DNA from: Escherichia coli
GTDB taxonomy: Bacteria; Pseudomonadota; Gammaproteobacteria; Enterobacterales; Enterobacteriaceae
NCBI RefSeq assembly: GCF_046105845.1
Contig: NZ_CP151004.1
DNA length: 64,000 bases
Direction: 5' to 3' (one strand)
The notes under the pieces were generated by a model. The model made no database searches. It was not told the DNA's origin and worked only from the letters and a program-made list of their open reading frames with translations. Shown here one piece after another: positions 28,069 through 32,305 of this stretch; position 1 is the first letter of the stretch; each line of letters begins with the position of its first letter. A program made the position numbers and the translations under genes.

Positions 28069-29178
<1,110 letters not shown>

Positions 29179-29241
29179 TGGGCGGTATTCTGAAACGGCG
29201 ATTGTCGTGAGAACAGAATGGTTGCACCAGAATACAGATAT

Positions 29242-29271
29242 AAAAAAACCGACATGACAGTCGGTTTTTTT
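29242..29271. terminator. Bidirectional intrinsic terminator
   Basis: Perfect 12-bp stem aaaaaaaccgac / gtcggttttttt with 6-nt loop; a U-run follows in either reading direction. Lies after selU (+) and at the predicted 3' end of the antisense sRNA (-). Confidence 0.6.
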
Positions 29272-29329
29272 ATTTTTTCCGCCCAAAACTTGGTGGTTCC
29301 GGGCAGAAATGAAACAGTCCTCATCTAGC
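29242..29329 (-). ncRNA. Candidate antitoxin sRNA of a type I toxin-antitoxin module
   Basis: Minus-strand promoter -35 TTGAAT (29364..29359), 17-bp spacer, -10 TATAAT (29341..29336); predicted start ~29329; terminator 29242..29271. Its 5' end is the reverse complement of 29315..29330, a 16-nt direct repeat of 29503..29518 in the toxin 5' UTR, so it can pair with the toxin mRNA in trans. Confidence 0.4.
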
Positions 29330-29335
29330 AAGTGA

Positions 29336-29364
29336 ATTATAAGTCAGGATGCCTACATATTCAA
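29336..29364 (-). promoter_or_regulatory. Near-consensus sigma70 promoter for the candidate antisense sRNA
   Basis: TTGAAT-17 bp-TATAAT read on the minus strand. Confidence 0.45.
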
Positions 29365-29589
29365 ACAGCTATGTTGGCGATACAATCCCGACGCTAGTAG
29401 TGATACTGCCTCAAGGGATTACCGCAGTGCGGAAAAGTACTTTTAAGTCCTGGTCAGGATACAGGTGGTGCTGATTCTGGTGCTCTAATTTGGAGAGAGG
29501 CAGTCCTCATCTAGCACATGAAGAAAATCATAGTTACAGGCAACGTAAGGGTAAGCTGTGATTGTCTTTCTCCCTTAAGGGAGCAACGG

Positions 29590-29673
29590 ATGAAAACTTT
29601 TCTCGATAAAGTTCTCATCATTCTTAAGGCGCTAATCGCGCTGCTGGAACTGATCCGTCAGTTTATTGAATAA
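29590..29673 (+). CDS. Candidate type I toxin: 27-aa hydrophobic membrane peptide (DinQ/TisB-like)
   Basis: atg...taa encoding MKTFLDKVLIILKALIALLELIRQFIE; SD-like aggga 7-9 nt upstream; single predicted TM helix; the ALIALLELIR stretch matches my recollection of E. coli DinQ. Too short to appear in the ORF track. Confidence 0.5.
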   Translation: MKTFLDKVLIILKALIALLELIRQFIE

Positions 29674-29690
29674 CTGAGGAAACGTAGCTA

Positions 29691-29745
29691 AGGCCGAAGG
29701 TTTACCACCTTCGGCCTTTAAAAAAACCGACATGACAGTTGGTTT
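29691..29745 (+). terminator. Tandem terminator-like hairpins after the toxin ORF
   Basis: GC hairpin aggccgaagg / ccttcggcct, then a degenerate second copy of the aaaaaaaccgac-atgaca-gttgg element with a T-rich tail. Confidence 0.4.
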
Positions 29746-29776
29746 CATATTTATTGCCAAAATGCACACTGTTCAT

Positions 29777-29875
29777 GCCAGATGCGGCGTAAACGCCTTA
29801 TCCGGCCTACACAATCTTGCAAAATCAATATATTGCACGATCCTCGTAGGCCTGATAAGCGTAGCGCATCAGGCA
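29777..29875. repeat. REP/BIME palindromic elements
   Basis: gccagatgcggcgtaaacgccttatccggcctac ... cgtaggcctgataagcgtagcgcatcaggc, inverted REP pair next to the ybbP stop. Confidence 0.6.
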
Positions 29876-29890
29876 ATCTAACGCCTGTCA

Positions 29891-32305
29891 TCATCCCGCA
29901 AACTGCCTGAACAGCGCCTTACCCTTAACCAGTCGCGCACCCAGCCAGCCGCCGAAAAGCGACAGCAGCAGTGCACCGCTGCACGGCAGCACAATCCACA
30001 ATCGCCAGTCTGGCTCCCACGGAAAATCAAACACTTTCGCCTGCAACACTGCCAGCGCCGTTTCCGCACCAATTGCGGCTACCAGGCCAGAAACAAACCC
30101 AAGCATGGCGAACTCACACCACAATGTCGTGCGCAGCAGCTTTTTCCCCGCACCGAGTGTGCGCCACACCACCAGCTCCTGATGACGCTGACGCATTCCC
30201 ACCTGCACCTGTGCCAGCAACAGCAACATACCGCAGGCGGTGACCAGCACCACCATCACCTCCAGCGCCCGACTTACCTGCTCCAGCACCTGACCGACCT
30301 GTTTTAAAATCGCGCCAATGTCTAACAGGCTAATGGTAGGGAACTGGCGGTTGAGTTGCGTCAACATGCCGTTGCCATTCTCCCAGCGGAAACTGGTAAG
30401 CCAGCTCTGCGGTTGCCCGTCTAATGCCCCTTCAGGGAAAATAAAATAGAAATTAGGCCGCAGACTTTCCCAGTCCACTTTGCGCAGGCTGGTCACTTTA
30501 GCGCGGAACTCCTGGGTATCGCCCATAAAAGTCACGGTATCACCGAGGGCAACGTTTAAGCGTTTCGCCAGCCCCTCTTCCATCGACACTTCATCGGCTT
30601 TTGGCGGCCAGTTACCGGCGACAATCGGATTATGATCGGGCCGCGTATTTTGCCAGGTAAGATTAAGTTCGCGATTGAGCGCCTCATCTTCATTGCCTTC
30701 TGTCGGCTTGCCGTTAATCGCCGTCAGTCTCGCCCGCACCACCGGATAAAATGATTCCGGGACTATCTGATGTTCCGCGAGGAACGCTTTTAGCGGTGCT
30801 ACCTGTTCTGTGGCGATGTTGATTAAAAAGTAGTTCGGGCTTTCTGGCGGTAGCTGCTGCTGCCAGCGGTCAAGCAGATCGCCACGCAGCACCAGCAGCA
30901 GTGCCAACAGCATAAAGGAGAGCGAAAATGCCGAAAGCTGGCTTAACGTTGACCACGGCTGACGTAACAGGCGGCTAACCGCCAGGCGCAGAGGTAGCGA
31001 TTTCAGCGTCATGCGGCGAAGTACATTCAGCAGCATCCAGCCCAGCACACCGCACAGCAAAGCCAGTACTACCGCGCCCGCCAGCACCGCCCAGAGCAGC
31101 ATACTGCCGCCCATTAATCCGGCGAGCAGCAGCACAACCACCACACTGACAATCGGCAGATAAAACTTGAGCGGCCAGACGTTCGCGACCACATCATTAC
31201 GCAATACGCGTAAAGGCTGCGTTGCCAGCAACAAGCGGTACGGTCGTAGCCCCACCAGCAGCGAGATGACCGTCATGGTGCCCAGCGCCCACAACCACGG
31301 CCAGAGGCTGGCTGGCGGTAGTGCAGCAGGCAGAACGGGCTTGAGCAGCACCATCAACACGTTTTCGAACAACAGGCCTATCGCCCCGCCGGTAACGGCT
31401 GAAAGCGTCAGCACCATCAACCACTGACCGACGATTAGCTTACGCAGTTGCGCTCGCCCTGCCCCCAGCGTTTTGAGGATCGCCACAAGATCGTAGCGAC
31501 TGCGACAGTAATGATTCATCGCCACCGCCACCGCTGCCACTGCCAGCAGCAAGGTCAGAAGCGCCGAAAGCAGCAGGAACTGTTGCGAGCGTTCCATCGA
31601 GCGCCCCAGCGCGCCTTCGTCCTGTTCCAGACCGTACCAGCGTTGTTCGGGTTTAAGCTGGGGTAACAACCATTTCTCATAGCCGTCGAGCTGGTTCTCG
31701 TTGCCGCCGAATTTATAGCGCCAGGTGACCCGACTTCCCGGCTGCACGGCTCCGGTTTTATCGACATCCGCCAGATTCATCATCAGACGCGGAGCCATCT
31801 GGAAGGGGTTAAAACCGGAATCCGGTTCCTGAATCACTTCTCCGGCAATCCGCAAGGTGGCATCACCCACGTCGATGGTGTCGCCTGTTTTCAGGTTAAG
31901 CAGTGCCATCAGGCGTGGGGCCAGCAATACGCTGCCCGCCTGCGGTTTCAGGCCAGGGGGATTAGTTTGCAGATCGCCATACATCGGGTAGATATCATCC
32001 ACCGCTTTGACGTTCGCCAGCTGCGGTGTGTCGCCTGCAAATGTCATGGTGGCGAAAGTCAGCTGCTTGCCGACTTTCAGGCCGCGCTTTTGCGCTTCCT
32101 CCAGCCACGCTTGCGGCACTTCGCGCGAACTGCGCAACGCCCGATCGCCCGCCATAAACTCCCGGCTTTGCTGGCTTAAGCCCTTCTCCATGCGATCGCT
32201 GATATTGCCCAGCGCCAGCACGCAGGCCACCGCCAGGCTTAGCGCCAGCCAGACAATTAATAGCGACGGCGAGCGCCATTCGCGCCAGAACCAACGTGCA
32301 ATCAT
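29891..32305 (-). CDS. ybbP: FtsX-like ABC transporter permease
   Basis: 804-aa multi-TM ORF, overlaps ybbA stop by 4 bp. Confidence 0.93.
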   Translation of the reverse strand: MIARWFWREWRSPSLLIVWLALSLAVACVLALGNISDRMEKGLSQQSREFMAGDRALRSSREVPQAWLEEAQKRGLKVGKQLTFATMTFAGDTPQLANVKAVDDIYPMYGDLQTNPPGLKPQAGSVLLAPRLMALLNLKTGDTIDVGDATLRIAGEVIQEPDSGFNPFQMAPRLMMNLADVDKTGAVQPGSRVTWRYKFGGNENQLDGYEKWLLPQLKPEQRWYGLEQDEGALGRSMERSQQFLLLSALLTLLLAVAAVAVAMNHYCRSRYDLVAILKTLGAGRAQLRKLIVGQWLMVLTLSAVTGGAIGLLFENVLMVLLKPVLPAALPPASLWPWLWALGTMTVISLLVGLRPYRLLLATQPLRVLRNDVVANVWPLKFYLPIVSVVVVLLLAGLMGGSMLLWAVLAGAVVLALLCGVLGWMLLNVLRRMTLKSLPLRLAVSRLLRQPWSTLSQLSAFSLSFMLLALLLVLRGDLLDRWQQQLPPESPNYFLINIATEQVAPLKAFLAEHQIVPESFYPVVRARLTAINGKPTEGNEDEALNRELNLTWQNTRPDHNPIVAGNWPPKADEVSMEEGLAKRLNVALGDTVTFMGDTQEFRAKVTSLRKVDWESLRPNFYFIFPEGALDGQPQSWLTSFRWENGNGMLTQLNRQFPTISLLDIGAILKQVGQVLEQVSRALEVMVVLVTACGMLLLLAQVQVGMRQRHQELVVWRTLGAGKKLLRTTLWCEFAMLGFVSGLVAAIGAETALAVLQAKVFDFPWEPDWRLWIVLPCSGALLLSLFGGWLGARLVKGKALFRQFAG

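What the first reader, a model, noticed from the sequence alone, without database searches (positions are those of the whole stretch)
29179..29890. Candidate type I toxin-antitoxin module (DinQ-like peptide plus antisense sRNA) in the selU-ybbP gap
A 27-codon ORF with a good SD encodes a hydrophobic peptide (MKTFLDKVLIILKALIALLELIRQFIE) whose core matches the E. coli DinQ toxin as I recall it. About 250 bp upstream on the opposite strand is a near-consensus promoter (TTGAAT-17-TATAAT) whose predicted transcript starts with the reverse complement of a 16-nt sequence (cagtcctcatctagca) that is directly repeated in the toxin 5' UTR (29503..29518), and ends at a 12-bp-stem bidirectional terminator. 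Geometry and pairing logic mirror tisB/istR and zor/orz-type systems. I cannot confirm from sequence that this locus is undescribed.
Basis: partly seen in the sequence, partly recalled or inferred. Interest (0 to 1): 0.75.

Follow-up and report, generated by a model that had tools for sequence, protein, structure and literature searches.

The report
Second DinQ-like toxin-antitoxin locus
The gap between selU and ybbP holds a real small-toxin gene and a matching antisense RNA, but it belongs to the published dinQ/agrB ("dinQ-like") family and its toxin gene is already annotated in over a thousand E. coli genomes, so it is ordinary.

Summary
Window 29179-29890 is the selU/ybbP gap of an Escherichia genome. 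It contains a 27-codon ORF (29590-29673), a strong divergent minus-strand promoter, an ~86-nt minus-strand RNA ending in a bidirectional terminator, and a 16-nt repeat that makes the RNA's 5' end complementary to the toxin 5' UTR.

It is not a new system. The peptide passes NCBIfam's DinQ model. The RNA passes Rfam's AgrB model. RefSeq annotates the ORF as "dinQ" in most of the 1326 complete E. coli genomes (of 5426) that carry the locus. Kristiansen et al. 2016 named this family dql (dinQ-like), and the DqlB branch was shown in 2025 to be a plasmid addiction module.

Comparison with five relatives supports function:
- The peptide is under purifying selection (dN/dS 0.09-0.31).
- The RNA's targeting segment co-varies with its mRNA target.
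- The four-element 5' UTR switch described for dinQ is present.

It differs from dinQ proper in several ways. It has no LexA box, so "damage-inducible" is an inherited name. It has one working sRNA copy. It sits at a different site and coexists with the true dinQ. Its closest relatives are on conjugative elements. Roughly 170-195 genomes carry a 108-bp deletion that removes the toxin start but keeps the sRNA.

Low novelty and modest interest.

The parts
29240..29273 (.). Bidirectional intrinsic terminator. It ends the antisense sRNA on the minus strand and probably selU on the plus strand.
   Evidence: 14-bp arms with a 6-nt loop, flanked by A and T runs, called on both strands.
29244..29329 (-). 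AgrB-like antisense sRNA (antitoxin), about 86 nt. It has a largely open 5' targeting region, an internal stem-loop (CUGCCCGG...UGGGCGG) and a terminator hairpin.
   Evidence: Rfam RF02891 AgrB matches 29328-29240 at 51.4 bits (gathering 40), full length 1-84. About 70% identical to K-12 agrB/agrA. Fold. The start at 29329/29328 is inferred from the -10 position and from homology with the agrB +1.
29336..29364 (-). sRNA promoter: TTGAAT (29364-29359), 17-nt spacer, TATAAT (29341-29336).
   Evidence: The position and spacing match relatives, for example L006 with TTGAAC-17-TATACT (my reading of the sequence printed).
29381..29386 (+). Inferred -10 (TACAAT) of the toxin promoter. Its -35 region overlaps the sRNA -35 on the other strand. 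No LexA box is present.
   Evidence: Position is homologous to the TATAAT of L006/L010 and the TATGAT of dinQ. The gap between the two divergent starts is 64 nt, as in L006/L010. No CTG-N10-CAG occurs anywhere in 29179-29890. The promoter scan did not call this site, which is weak with a poor -35.
29393..29722 (+). Inferred primary toxin mRNA, about 330 nt with a 197-nt 5' UTR.
   Evidence: 61% identical to the 331-nt K-12 dinQ mRNA along its whole length. The 5' end GCUAG pairs with CUAGC at 29511-29515, and this pairing co-varies across the family.
29393..29412 (+). Element 1: the 5' arm of the long stem (S1, including a/a'). It pairs with the sRNA target region in the full-length transcript.
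   Evidence: In the MFE fold of 29393-29722, 29393-29412 pairs with 29497-29516. Pair 2/129 in the alignment is UA in 5 sequences and CG in the window.
29445..29453 (+). Invariant AAGUCCUGG just 3' of the position homologous to the dinQ U44 processing site.
   Evidence: These columns are invariant in the six-module alignment. The dinQ +44 site comes from PMC5066626. Processing at this locus is inferred, not shown.
29492..29515 (+). sRNA target site, which includes element 2 (GGAGAGAGG, the anti-anti-SD).
   Evidence: RNAduplex gives 15 Watson-Crick pairs (29501-29515) and a 9-position extension with G-U pairs and one mismatch. The site is a direct repeat of 29315-29330.
29561..29583 (+). Element 3 (29561-29574) and element 4 with the SD (29579-29583). 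Together they form the SD hairpin CUCCC-UUAA-GGGAG. Alternatively, element 3 pairs with element 2.
   Evidence: Folds of the 5'-truncated RNA pair 29492-29505 with 29561-29574. When the sRNA site is blocked, the 29570-29574/29579-29583 hairpin forms. The palindrome is repeat I4.
29590..29673 (+). Toxin ORF: 27 codons and a stop, MKTFLDKVLIILKALIALLELIRQFIE.
   Evidence: NCBIfam DinQ 37.2 bits against cut-off 30. Relatives are all 27 aa with dN/dS 0.09-0.31. The upstream in-frame extension of the 51-aa RefSeq model (29518-) has stop codons in three of the four relatives checked (L006, L010, L009).
29690..29718 (+). Toxin mRNA terminator hairpin: 12-bp G+C-rich stem with a short U tract.
   Evidence: Inverted repeat I3. 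Its position is homologous to the dinQ terminator SL9.
29719..29758 (.). Degenerate second copy of the sRNA terminator and 3' end: a vestigial sRNA copy or duplication scar. It may act as a back-up terminator.
   Evidence: Direct repeat D1 is 83% identical over 40 nt at 478-nt spacing. The local alignment scores 63 against 19 +/- 3 for shuffles. The scan calls it terminator-like on the plus strand.

Best explanation
This is a chromosomal type I toxin-antitoxin module of the dinQ/agrB (dinQ-like, dql) family. It is a paralogue of dinQ and most probably of the DqlA type.

Proposed mechanism, inferred step by step from homology with the experimentally dissected dinQ/agrB system:
1. A weak sigma-70 promoter makes a ~330-nt mRNA. 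Its 5' end pairs with the region around 29497-29516. That leaves the SD locked in a small hairpin, so the primary transcript is translationally inert and poorly accessible to the sRNA.
2. 5' trimming near 29441 frees element 2 (GGAGAGAGG). Element 2 then pairs with element 3 and releases the SD, allowing translation of a 27-residue membrane helix that damages the inner membrane.
3. The strongly and divergently transcribed ~86-nt AgrB-like sRNA pairs through its 5' end with 29492-29515. This recaptures element 2 so the SD hairpin re-forms, and it probably creates an RNase III substrate. The toxin is kept silent.

Unlike dinQ, the locus has no LexA box, so it is probably not under SOS control.
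For: - Shown here, family identity: the peptide passes the DinQ model and the sRNA passes the AgrB model. The locus is collinear with K-12 dinQ/agrB at 61% (mRNA) and about 70% (sRNA) identity.
- Shown here, promoter and terminator: both are present for the sRNA.
- Shown here, pairing: the cognate duplex is -48.2 kcal/mol against -24.9 +/- 3.0 for shuffles. Cross-pairs with dinQ, AgrB and AgrA give -34.6 to -40.1.
- Shown here, specificity: across six modules the cognate pair gives the best energy in five of six sRNA rows. L011 is a near tie (-47.9 vs -47.7).
- Shown here, covariation: the variable targeting segment differs between modules but matches within each. The mRNA 5' end, the target 3' end and the sRNA 5' end change together. 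The window has GCUAG/CUAGC/CUAG, most others have GUUAG/CUAAC/UUAG, and plasmid modules have GUUGG/CCAAC and GUCUA/UAGAC.
- Shown here, UTR structure: the consensus fold of six UTRs has 44 pairs, 13 of them with compensatory changes. Elements 1:2, 2:3 and 3:4 are present.
- Shown here, coding constraint: dN/dS is 0.09-0.31 for the 27-codon ORF.
- From the literature: the dinQ switch, AgrB action and RNase III cleavage (PMC5066626); the definition of the dql family; DqlB toxicity and rescue by its agrB-like RNA (PMC12365149).
Against: - No expression or toxicity data exist for this locus.
- The toxin promoter is weak. It has a TACAAT -10 and no good -35 at 16-18 nt, and the scan did not call it.
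- sRNA-target complementarity is shorter than in K-12: 14-16 perfect pairs against 23. The 34-nt duplex energy (-42.6) equals that of AgrA with dinQ (-42.7), and AgrA is reported not to protect against dinQ.
- In silico, the SD of the truncated mRNA is still predicted to be paired, with GUGCUCU at 29480-29486. The open state is therefore not reproduced. The same method is also poor for dinQ +44, giving P(unpaired) of 0.22.
- The locus is present in only about 24% of E. coli genomes, and roughly 170-195 genomes have lost the toxin start.
Confidence: 0.8

Rival explanations
1. The locus is a decaying relic of a mobile-element addiction module. It is homologous to dinQ/agrB, but the toxin is no longer meaningfully expressed or toxic, and the locus persists only because E. 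coli lineages are young.
For: - The closest relatives sit in conjugative elements and an F-like plasmid.
- Distribution is patchy, 1326 of 5426 genomes, at a site occupied by the rhsD island in K-12.
- A recurrent or inherited 108-bp deletion removes the target, SD and start codon in roughly 170-195 genomes.
- BS-01 has a degenerate sRNA remnant.
- A vestigial second sRNA copy lies at 29719-29758.
- The toxin promoter is weak.
- Stop-loss and indel variants of the peptide exist in databases.
Against: - In the window the ORF, SD, sRNA promoter, terminators and every switch element are intact.
- The window-specific A-to-G change in the target is compensated in both the mRNA 5' end and the sRNA, which implies selection on pairing after divergence from relatives.
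- Retention of the sRNA in the toxin-deleted genomes, and loss of the toxin start rather than the sRNA, is what one expects if the toxin is active.
Confidence: 0.15
2. It is the SOS-inducible dinQ gene itself, as the RefSeq product name (damage-inducible type I toxin DinQ) says.
For: The NCBIfam equivalog model NF041472 is passed, and PGAP names it dinQ.
Against: - The canonical dinQ next to gor is present in 5422 of 5426 E. coli genomes, so carriers have both.
- The peptide is only 62% identical to DinQ, with a different C-terminus (RQFIE against FLLQLLN).
- No CTG-N10-CAG LexA box exists anywhere in the gap, whereas the dinQ box is found by the same scan.
- The genomic site is different.
Confidence: 0.02
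3. The sRNA is the functional part. It acts mainly in trans on other targets, for example by neutralising incoming plasmid or ICE dql toxins (anti-addiction) or by regulating dinQ.
For: The sRNA has the strongest promoter in the region. It is retained when the toxin start is deleted. The orphan OrzP sRNA of MG1655 is a precedent (PMC11264685).
Against: - Pairing of the window sRNA with dinQ, with four dql relatives and with two plasmid modules is non-cognate in quality. Energies are -27.8 to -37.6 kcal/mol and the longest perfect run is 6-8 nt, against 14-16 nt for its own mRNA.
- The targeting segment is module-specific.
Confidence: 0.03

Closest known systems
dinQ/agrB (with agrA) of E. coli K-12, in the gor-arsR gap (Weel-Sneve 2013, PMC3567139; Kristiansen 2016, PMC5066626)
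   Same: - The toxin is a 27-aa single-helix hydrophobic peptide with the ALIALLELIR core.
- An 82-86-nt sRNA with the same two-hairpin shape is transcribed divergently.
- The sRNA 5' end pairs with the 5' UTR about 75-100 nt upstream of the start codon.
- The 5' UTR is about 195 nt and has the a/a' stem, SL2, SL4 and the 1:2, 2:3 and 3:4 elements.
- The terminator is homologous.
   Different: - No LexA box.
- ATG start instead of GTG.
- One functional sRNA copy, with a vestigial copy downstream of the toxin, instead of tandem agrA/agrB upstream.
- Shorter perfect complementarity, 14-16 nt against 23 nt.
- C-terminus RQFIE instead of FLLQLLN.
- Accessory locus in about 24% of genomes, against about 100% for dinQ.
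dql (dinQ-like) genes, subgroups dqlA and dqlB (Kristiansen 2016). DqlB/agrB was validated as a plasmid addiction module on pOXA-48 (PMC12365149).
   Same: - It fits the published definition: a dinQ homologue by 5' UTR and signature residues, found in Enterobacteriaceae chromosomes and plasmids, sometimes together with dinQ, and often annotated with an over-long N-terminus.
- It shares the RQFI[DE] C-terminus with DqlB.
   Different: - It is not DqlB. NF041473 scores 23.2 bits against a cut-off of 35, and it lacks the 7-residue insertion that the alignment shows in the 31-aa DqlB.
- Assignment to DqlA is by elimination only, because the reference sequences (the paper's Fig. 3B) could not be read.
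- It is chromosomal and fixed at one site rather than plasmid-borne.
27-aa relatives on Salmonella and Enterobacter integrative conjugative elements (L006, L010), a Klebsiella aerogenes F-like plasmid (L009) and a Salmonella integrase-adjacent island (L011)
   Same: - Peptides are 70-81% identical and the same length.
- An AgrB-like sRNA lies upstream on the opposite strand. Rfam confirms this for L006, L009 and L010; for L011 it is located by sequence similarity only.
- L006 and L010 have the same 64-nt spacing between the divergent start sites.
   Different: - The targeting segment of the sRNA and mRNA is different.
- Those modules lie among transfer genes, whereas the window module lies between housekeeping genes with no mobile-element genes nearby.
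zorO/orzO, tisB/istR-1 and shoB/ohsC
   Same: The sRNA is divergent and non-overlapping, and it pairs within a long, processed 5' UTR. The primary transcript is inert.
   Different: - There is no sequence-family relationship at curated thresholds. Rfam OrzO-P scores 24 bits against a gathering score of 60.
- NCBIfam returns only DinQ and DqlB for the peptide.
- One paper notes weak zor 5' UTR similarity upstream of plasmid dinQ-type ORFs (PMC11264685).

Membership tests
dinQ/agrB - dql type I toxin-antitoxin family | Small hydrophobic single-helix peptide with the DinQ signature residues | tested here: met
   NCBIfam NF041472 scores 37.2 bits against cut-off 30. The alignment shows the ALIALLELIR core. 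GRAVY is 1.24. Database relatives carry precomputed Pfam PF28061 DinQ.
dinQ/agrB - dql type I toxin-antitoxin family | AgrB-type sRNA encoded upstream of the toxin on the opposite strand, without overlapping it | tested here: met
   Rfam RF02891 scores 51.4 bits against gathering 40, full-length, at 29328-29240 on the minus strand. It has its own promoter and terminator.
dinQ/agrB - dql type I toxin-antitoxin family | sRNA 5' region complementary to the toxin 5' UTR upstream of the ribosome-binding site | tested here: met
   14-16 perfect pairs with an extension. Energy is -48.2 kcal/mol against -24.9 +/- 3.0 for shuffles. The segment co-varies with the target across modules.
dinQ/agrB - dql type I toxin-antitoxin family | Long 5' UTR with a/a', SL2, SL4 and the mutually exclusive elements 1:2, 2:3 and 3:4 that gate the SD | tested here: met
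   The UTR is 197 nt. All the pairings are found in folds. The consensus structure has 13 compensatory pairs, including a window-specific one in a/a'.
dinQ/agrB - dql type I toxin-antitoxin family | The SD becomes accessible in the 5'-processed mRNA | tested here: inconclusive
   The thermodynamic prediction keeps the SD paired in the truncated RNA, with P(unpaired) 0.01. The same method gives only 0.22 for the experimentally open dinQ +44.
dinQ/agrB - dql type I toxin-antitoxin family | 5' processing, RNase III cleavage of the duplex, peptide toxicity and membrane localisation | not testable with these tools
   These need Northern blots or RACE, in vitro cleavage assays and induction assays.
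dinQ proper (SOS regulon member, orthologue of b4613) | LexA box overlapping the promoter | tested here: not met
   No CTG-N10-CAG occurs in 29179-29890. The best heterology-type score is 16.7, against 4.0 for the dinQ box (the dinQ box was part of the scoring set).
dinQ proper (SOS regulon member, orthologue of b4613) | Position between gor and arsR, as a single-copy orthologue | tested here: not met
   The window locus lies between selU and ybbP. The gor-linked dinQ is present in 5422 of 5426 genomes.
DqlB | Passes the NCBIfam DqlB model, being a 31-aa peptide with an internal insertion | tested here: not met
   NF041473 scores 23.2 bits against cut-off 35. The window peptide is 27 aa and lacks the insertion.
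DqlA | Amino-acid signature of the DqlA subgroup as drawn in Fig. 3B of Kristiansen 2016 | not testable with these tools
   The figure and supplements are not held. The assignment is by elimination.
zor/orz | OrzO/OrzP-type sRNA and ZorO-type peptide | tested here: not met
   Rfam OrzO-P scores 24.1 and 19.4 bits against gathering 60. NCBIfam gives no ZorO hit at E up to 10.

The most novel reading that the evidence does not exclude
The module is a domesticated, SOS-independent DqlA-type system with a chromosomal role distinct from that of dinQ. One possibility is that it stabilises or polices the selU-ybbP/rhsD recombination hot-spot. Another is that it responds to a stress other than DNA damage. 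The orphan sRNA left in the ~170-195 toxin-deleted genomes may have acquired a trans-regulatory function.
Probability: 0.1. Interest if true: 0.5.

Novelty: already known. Interest (0 to 1): 0.2.

Why it matters
The finding mainly matters for annotation.

- About a quarter of complete E. coli genomes carry two genes named "damage-inducible type I toxin DinQ". The selU-ybbP copy has no LexA box, so its regulation is probably different.
- The RefSeq model of this copy is 51 aa instead of 27 aa.
- Its antitoxin sRNA is not annotated in the RefSeq records I examined.
- The non-DqlB 27-aa branch has, as far as I could find, no experimental characterisation.
- The natural toxin-start deletion that retains the sRNA is a ready-made comparison for asking whether the toxin is costly.

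None of this changes how type I systems are understood.

Tried and rejected
- tblastn of the 27-aa peptide against plasmids returned nothing, probably because of low-complexity masking. The DNA search in distant mode instead found 1827 plasmids, mostly annotated dqlB.
- The local Pfam-A library has no DinQ model and gave no hit, although precomputed PF28061 labels exist for relatives.
- LexA control is rejected. There is no canonical box. Two one-mismatch sites (CTACATATTCAAACAG at 29353 and GTGAATTATAAGTCAG at 29332) have a changed CTG triplet and score poorly.
- Anti-addiction or cross-talk with dinQ, ICE or plasmid modules is not supported by the duplex matrices.
- Thermodynamic folding could not show SD opening in the truncated mRNA.
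- The supplements and figures of Kristiansen 2016 are not held. I therefore could not verify whether this exact locus is among their 14 dql sequences, or confirm the DqlA label.
- No paper in the library mentions dinQ together with ybbP, selU, ybbB or mnmH.
Full report
**1. What is in the sequence**

Window 29179-29890 is the whole gap between selU/mnmH (28084-29178, +) and ybbP (29891-32305, -).

- A 27-codon ORF at 29590-29673 encodes MKTFLDKVLIILKALIALLELIRQFIE. GGAG lies 6 nt upstream of the ATG.
- A minus-strand promoter reads TTGAAT-17-TATAAT (29364-29336). It was the only sigma-70-like site found in 29100-29950.
- A 14-bp bidirectional terminator lies at 29240-29273.
- A 16-nt exact direct repeat lies at 29315-29330 and 29501-29516. 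It extends to 22 nt at 91% identity.
- The toxin hairpin terminator is at 29690-29718.
- It is followed by a degenerate second copy of the sRNA terminator (29719-29758, 83% over 40 nt).
- The rest of the gap (about 29771-29882) is REP-type sequence. It gives Rfam hits to REP-derived families ES036 and naRNA4.

**2. What it is**

The peptide passes NCBIfam NF041472 (toxin_DinQ, 37.2 bits, cut-off 30). It fails NF041473 (DqlB, 23.2 bits, cut-off 35). The minus-strand stretch 29328-29240 passes Rfam AgrB (RF02891, 51.4 bits, gathering 40, full length).

Aligned with the K-12 dinQ locus (L002), the toxin mRNA region is 61% identical end to end, and the sRNA is about 70% identical to agrB and agrA. 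RefSeq annotates the ORF as "dinQ: damage-inducible type I toxin DinQ" in this position.

The locus is a paralogue, not dinQ itself. The gor-linked dinQ is present in 5422 of 5426 complete E. coli genomes. The selU-ybbP module is in 1326 of them, always chromosomal, with one place per genome as a rule (median 1, highest 2).

**3. Literature**

Kristiansen et al. 2016 (PMC5066626) found by BLAST a class of dinQ homologues in chromosomes and plasmids of Enterobacteriaceae. They named it dql (dinQ-like) and split it into dqlA and dqlB. They noted that some strains carry dql together with dinQ, and that most Dql peptides are unannotated or annotated with an over-long N-terminus. T1TAdb incorporated these loci. 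DqlB with its agrB-like RNA was validated in 2025 as an addiction module of pOXA-48 and found on 3310 plasmids (PMC12365149).

The family is therefore known. The window peptide is neither DinQ type (C-terminus FLLQLLN) nor DqlB type (31 aa, with an insertion). It belongs to a third 27-aa group, MK.F.[DE]K...LKAL[IV]ALLELIRQFI[DEN], which by elimination is probably DqlA. I could not read the figure to confirm this. No paper in the library links dinQ with ybbP or selU.

**4. Comparative evidence that it works**

I fetched four relatives of the 27-aa group:
- L006, on a Salmonella integrative conjugative element;
- L010, on an Enterobacter hormaechei integrative conjugative element;
- L009, on a Klebsiella aerogenes F-like plasmid;
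- L011, on a Salmonella integrase-adjacent island.

L006, L009 and L010 each have an Rfam AgrB hit upstream on the opposite strand. For L011 I located the sRNA by sequence similarity.

*Coding constraint.* All five ORFs are 27 codons, and pairwise dN/dS is 0.09-0.31. The in-frame upstream extension used by the 51-aa RefSeq model contains stop codons in three of the four relatives checked (L006, L010, L009). The 27-aa ORF is therefore the real one.

*Antisense specificity.* The segment between GAGA and ATCTA differs in every module but matches between sRNA gene and mRNA within each module.

| Module | Variable segment |
|---|---|
| Window | CAGTCCTC |
| L009 | CAAGCTTT |
| L011 | CAGCACTC |
| K-12 agrB | GAGTTCTT |

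In the 34-nt duplex matrix the cognate pair is best in five of six rows, and L011 is a near tie. The longest perfect run is largest for the cognate pair in every row except L006 and L010 (9 nt cognate against 11 nt with L009): window 14, L009 15, L011 19, K-12 23.

*Three-way covariation.* The window mRNA starts GCUAG and its target ends CUAGC, and its sRNA starts (G)CUAG. Most relatives have GUUAG, CUAAC and UUAG. Two plasmid modules have GUUGG/CCAAC and GUCUA/UAGAC. This supports the inferred mRNA start at about 29393, the long 5' stem and the sRNA pairing.

*Consensus structure.* RNAalifold on six UTRs gives 44 pairs, 13 of them with compensatory changes.

**5. Mechanism (inferred by homology, with each element located)**

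- In the full-length RNA, 29393-29412 pairs with 29497-29516. This is the analogue of S1, duplex 1:2. The SD sits in or next to the CUCCC-UUAA-GGGAG hairpin.
- In an RNA starting at 29441, homologous to dinQ +44, 29492-29505 pairs with 29561-29574 (the 2:3 analogue).
- When 29493-29516 is blocked, as the sRNA would do, the SD hairpin re-forms.
- The sRNA covers 29492-29515, with 15 Watson-Crick pairs and a G-U-rich extension.

This is the logic demonstrated for dinQ/agrB by SHAPE, mutagenesis, in vitro translation and RNase III assays.

The prediction did not reproduce an open SD in the truncated RNA. The same method performs poorly on dinQ +44, so that step is unresolved.

**6. How it differs from dinQ**

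- There is no LexA box. No CTG-N10-CAG occurs in the gap, while the same scan finds the dinQ box. The product name "damage-inducible" is therefore inherited, not supported.
- The toxin promoter is weak (TACAAT, poor -35). It is arranged back to back with the strong sRNA promoter, with 64 nt between the start sites, as in the ICE modules.
- There is one working sRNA copy, with a vestigial terminator copy downstream of the toxin. K-12 has tandem agrA and agrB instead.
- The perfect complementarity is shorter than in K-12. The duplex energy equals that of the reportedly ineffective AgrA-dinQ pair. This is the main caveat on the strength of repression.

**7. Population picture**

- 1130 genomes have at least 80% of the core.
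- Roughly 170-195 genomes carry a 108-bp deletion (29502-29609) between AGTCCTCATC and AGTTCTCATC. It removes the sRNA target, the SD, the ATG and the first six codons, and leaves the sRNA intact. RefSeq annotates nothing there in the sampled records.
- K-12 has an IS remnant and the rhsD island at this site.
- Strain BS-01 keeps a degenerate sRNA fragment abutting rhs sequence.
- Among 100,044 species-representative genomes, only Escherichia sp. E1V33 has both 16-mers. It has them at the same selU-ybbP site, at 98% identity.
- The window sRNA does not pair above non-cognate level with dinQ, ICE or plasmid dql mRNAs.

**8. Verdict**

The finding is an instance of a published family that current pipelines already annotate automatically for the toxin and can detect with Rfam for the sRNA.

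What remains is locus-level detail:
- the missing LexA box;
- the over-long CDS model;
- the unannotated sRNA;
- the natural toxin deletion;
- the ancestry on mobile elements.

Novelty: already known. Interest: low, 0.2.

Noticed in passing
window 29502-29609; L003 (NZ_CP159639.1) 1376-2040: Roughly 170-195 complete E. coli genomes carry a 108-bp deletion between the near-repeats AGTCCTCATC and AGTTCTCATC. It removes the sRNA target, SD, ATG and first six codons of the toxin, and keeps the sRNA and its promoter. No gene is annotated there in the sampled records (H65-H69).
   Followed up: partly
window 29719-29758 (weak similarity continues to about 29802): A degenerate second copy of the sRNA terminator and 3' end lies directly after the toxin terminator, 478 nt from the first copy. 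It may be a scar of a tandem duplication or a dead second sRNA. The scan calls it terminator-like on the plus strand.
   Followed up: partly
window 29518-29589: RefSeq/PGAP models the toxin as 51 aa starting at 29518. The extension lies over the conserved SL4 RNA region, and the frame has stop codons in relatives L006, L010 and L009. The 27-aa ORF is the conserved one.
   Followed up: yes
window 29771-29882: REP/BIME-type palindromic sequence fills the ybbP-proximal part of the gap. It gives Rfam hits to ES036 (40.3 bits, gathering 37.6) and sub-threshold hits to naRNA4. These are repeat-derived families, so I read the hits as REP elements and not as specific sRNA genes.
   Followed up: no
proteins P0020 and P0014: Database peptides combine the N-terminal part of this toxin (MKTFLDKVLIVLKALIALLELIR) with the DinQ C-terminus (FLLQLLN, or QLLNN). 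This suggests recombination or gene conversion between the two paralogous loci in some strains.
   Followed up: no
proteins P0006, P0009, P0010, P0015, P0019: Stop-loss variants (RQFIE followed by TEET, QLRKRS or SLRKRS) and a 2-residue VL duplication of the toxin occur in E. coli assemblies. The window's Ile11 (LIILK) is a minority allele; most database copies have Val (LIVLK).
   Followed up: no
L006 2181-2614, L010 2163-2596, L009 443-889, L011 2224-2680: The closest relatives of the module lie inside integrative conjugative elements (between DUF3262/RAQPRD and TraG-D genes), in an F-like plasmid near traM/traY/FinP, and next to a phage-type integrase. The E. coli chromosomal copy looks like a stranded mobile-element module.
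   Followed up: partly
L005 (K-12 519000-531500) and L004 2378-3130 (strain BS-01): The selU-ybbP interval is a variable site. K-12 holds ylbG, the rhsD island and pseudogenes there and has no module. BS-01 keeps a degenerate sRNA fragment abutting an rhs-type pseudogene.
   Followed up: partly
window 29353-29368: CTACATATTCAAACAG, between the two divergent promoters, resembles a LexA box except for G-to-A in the first CTG triplet. It scores poorly (16.7 on a heterology-type index) and is probably not functional.
   Followed up: partly
hit H71, CP061270.1 (PLSDB 'plasmid', 1.2 Mb): The only plasmid-collection record with the full locus at 99% identity is a 1.2-Mb E. coli record. It is probably a chromosome fragment or chromid misfiled as a plasmid.
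   Followed up: no
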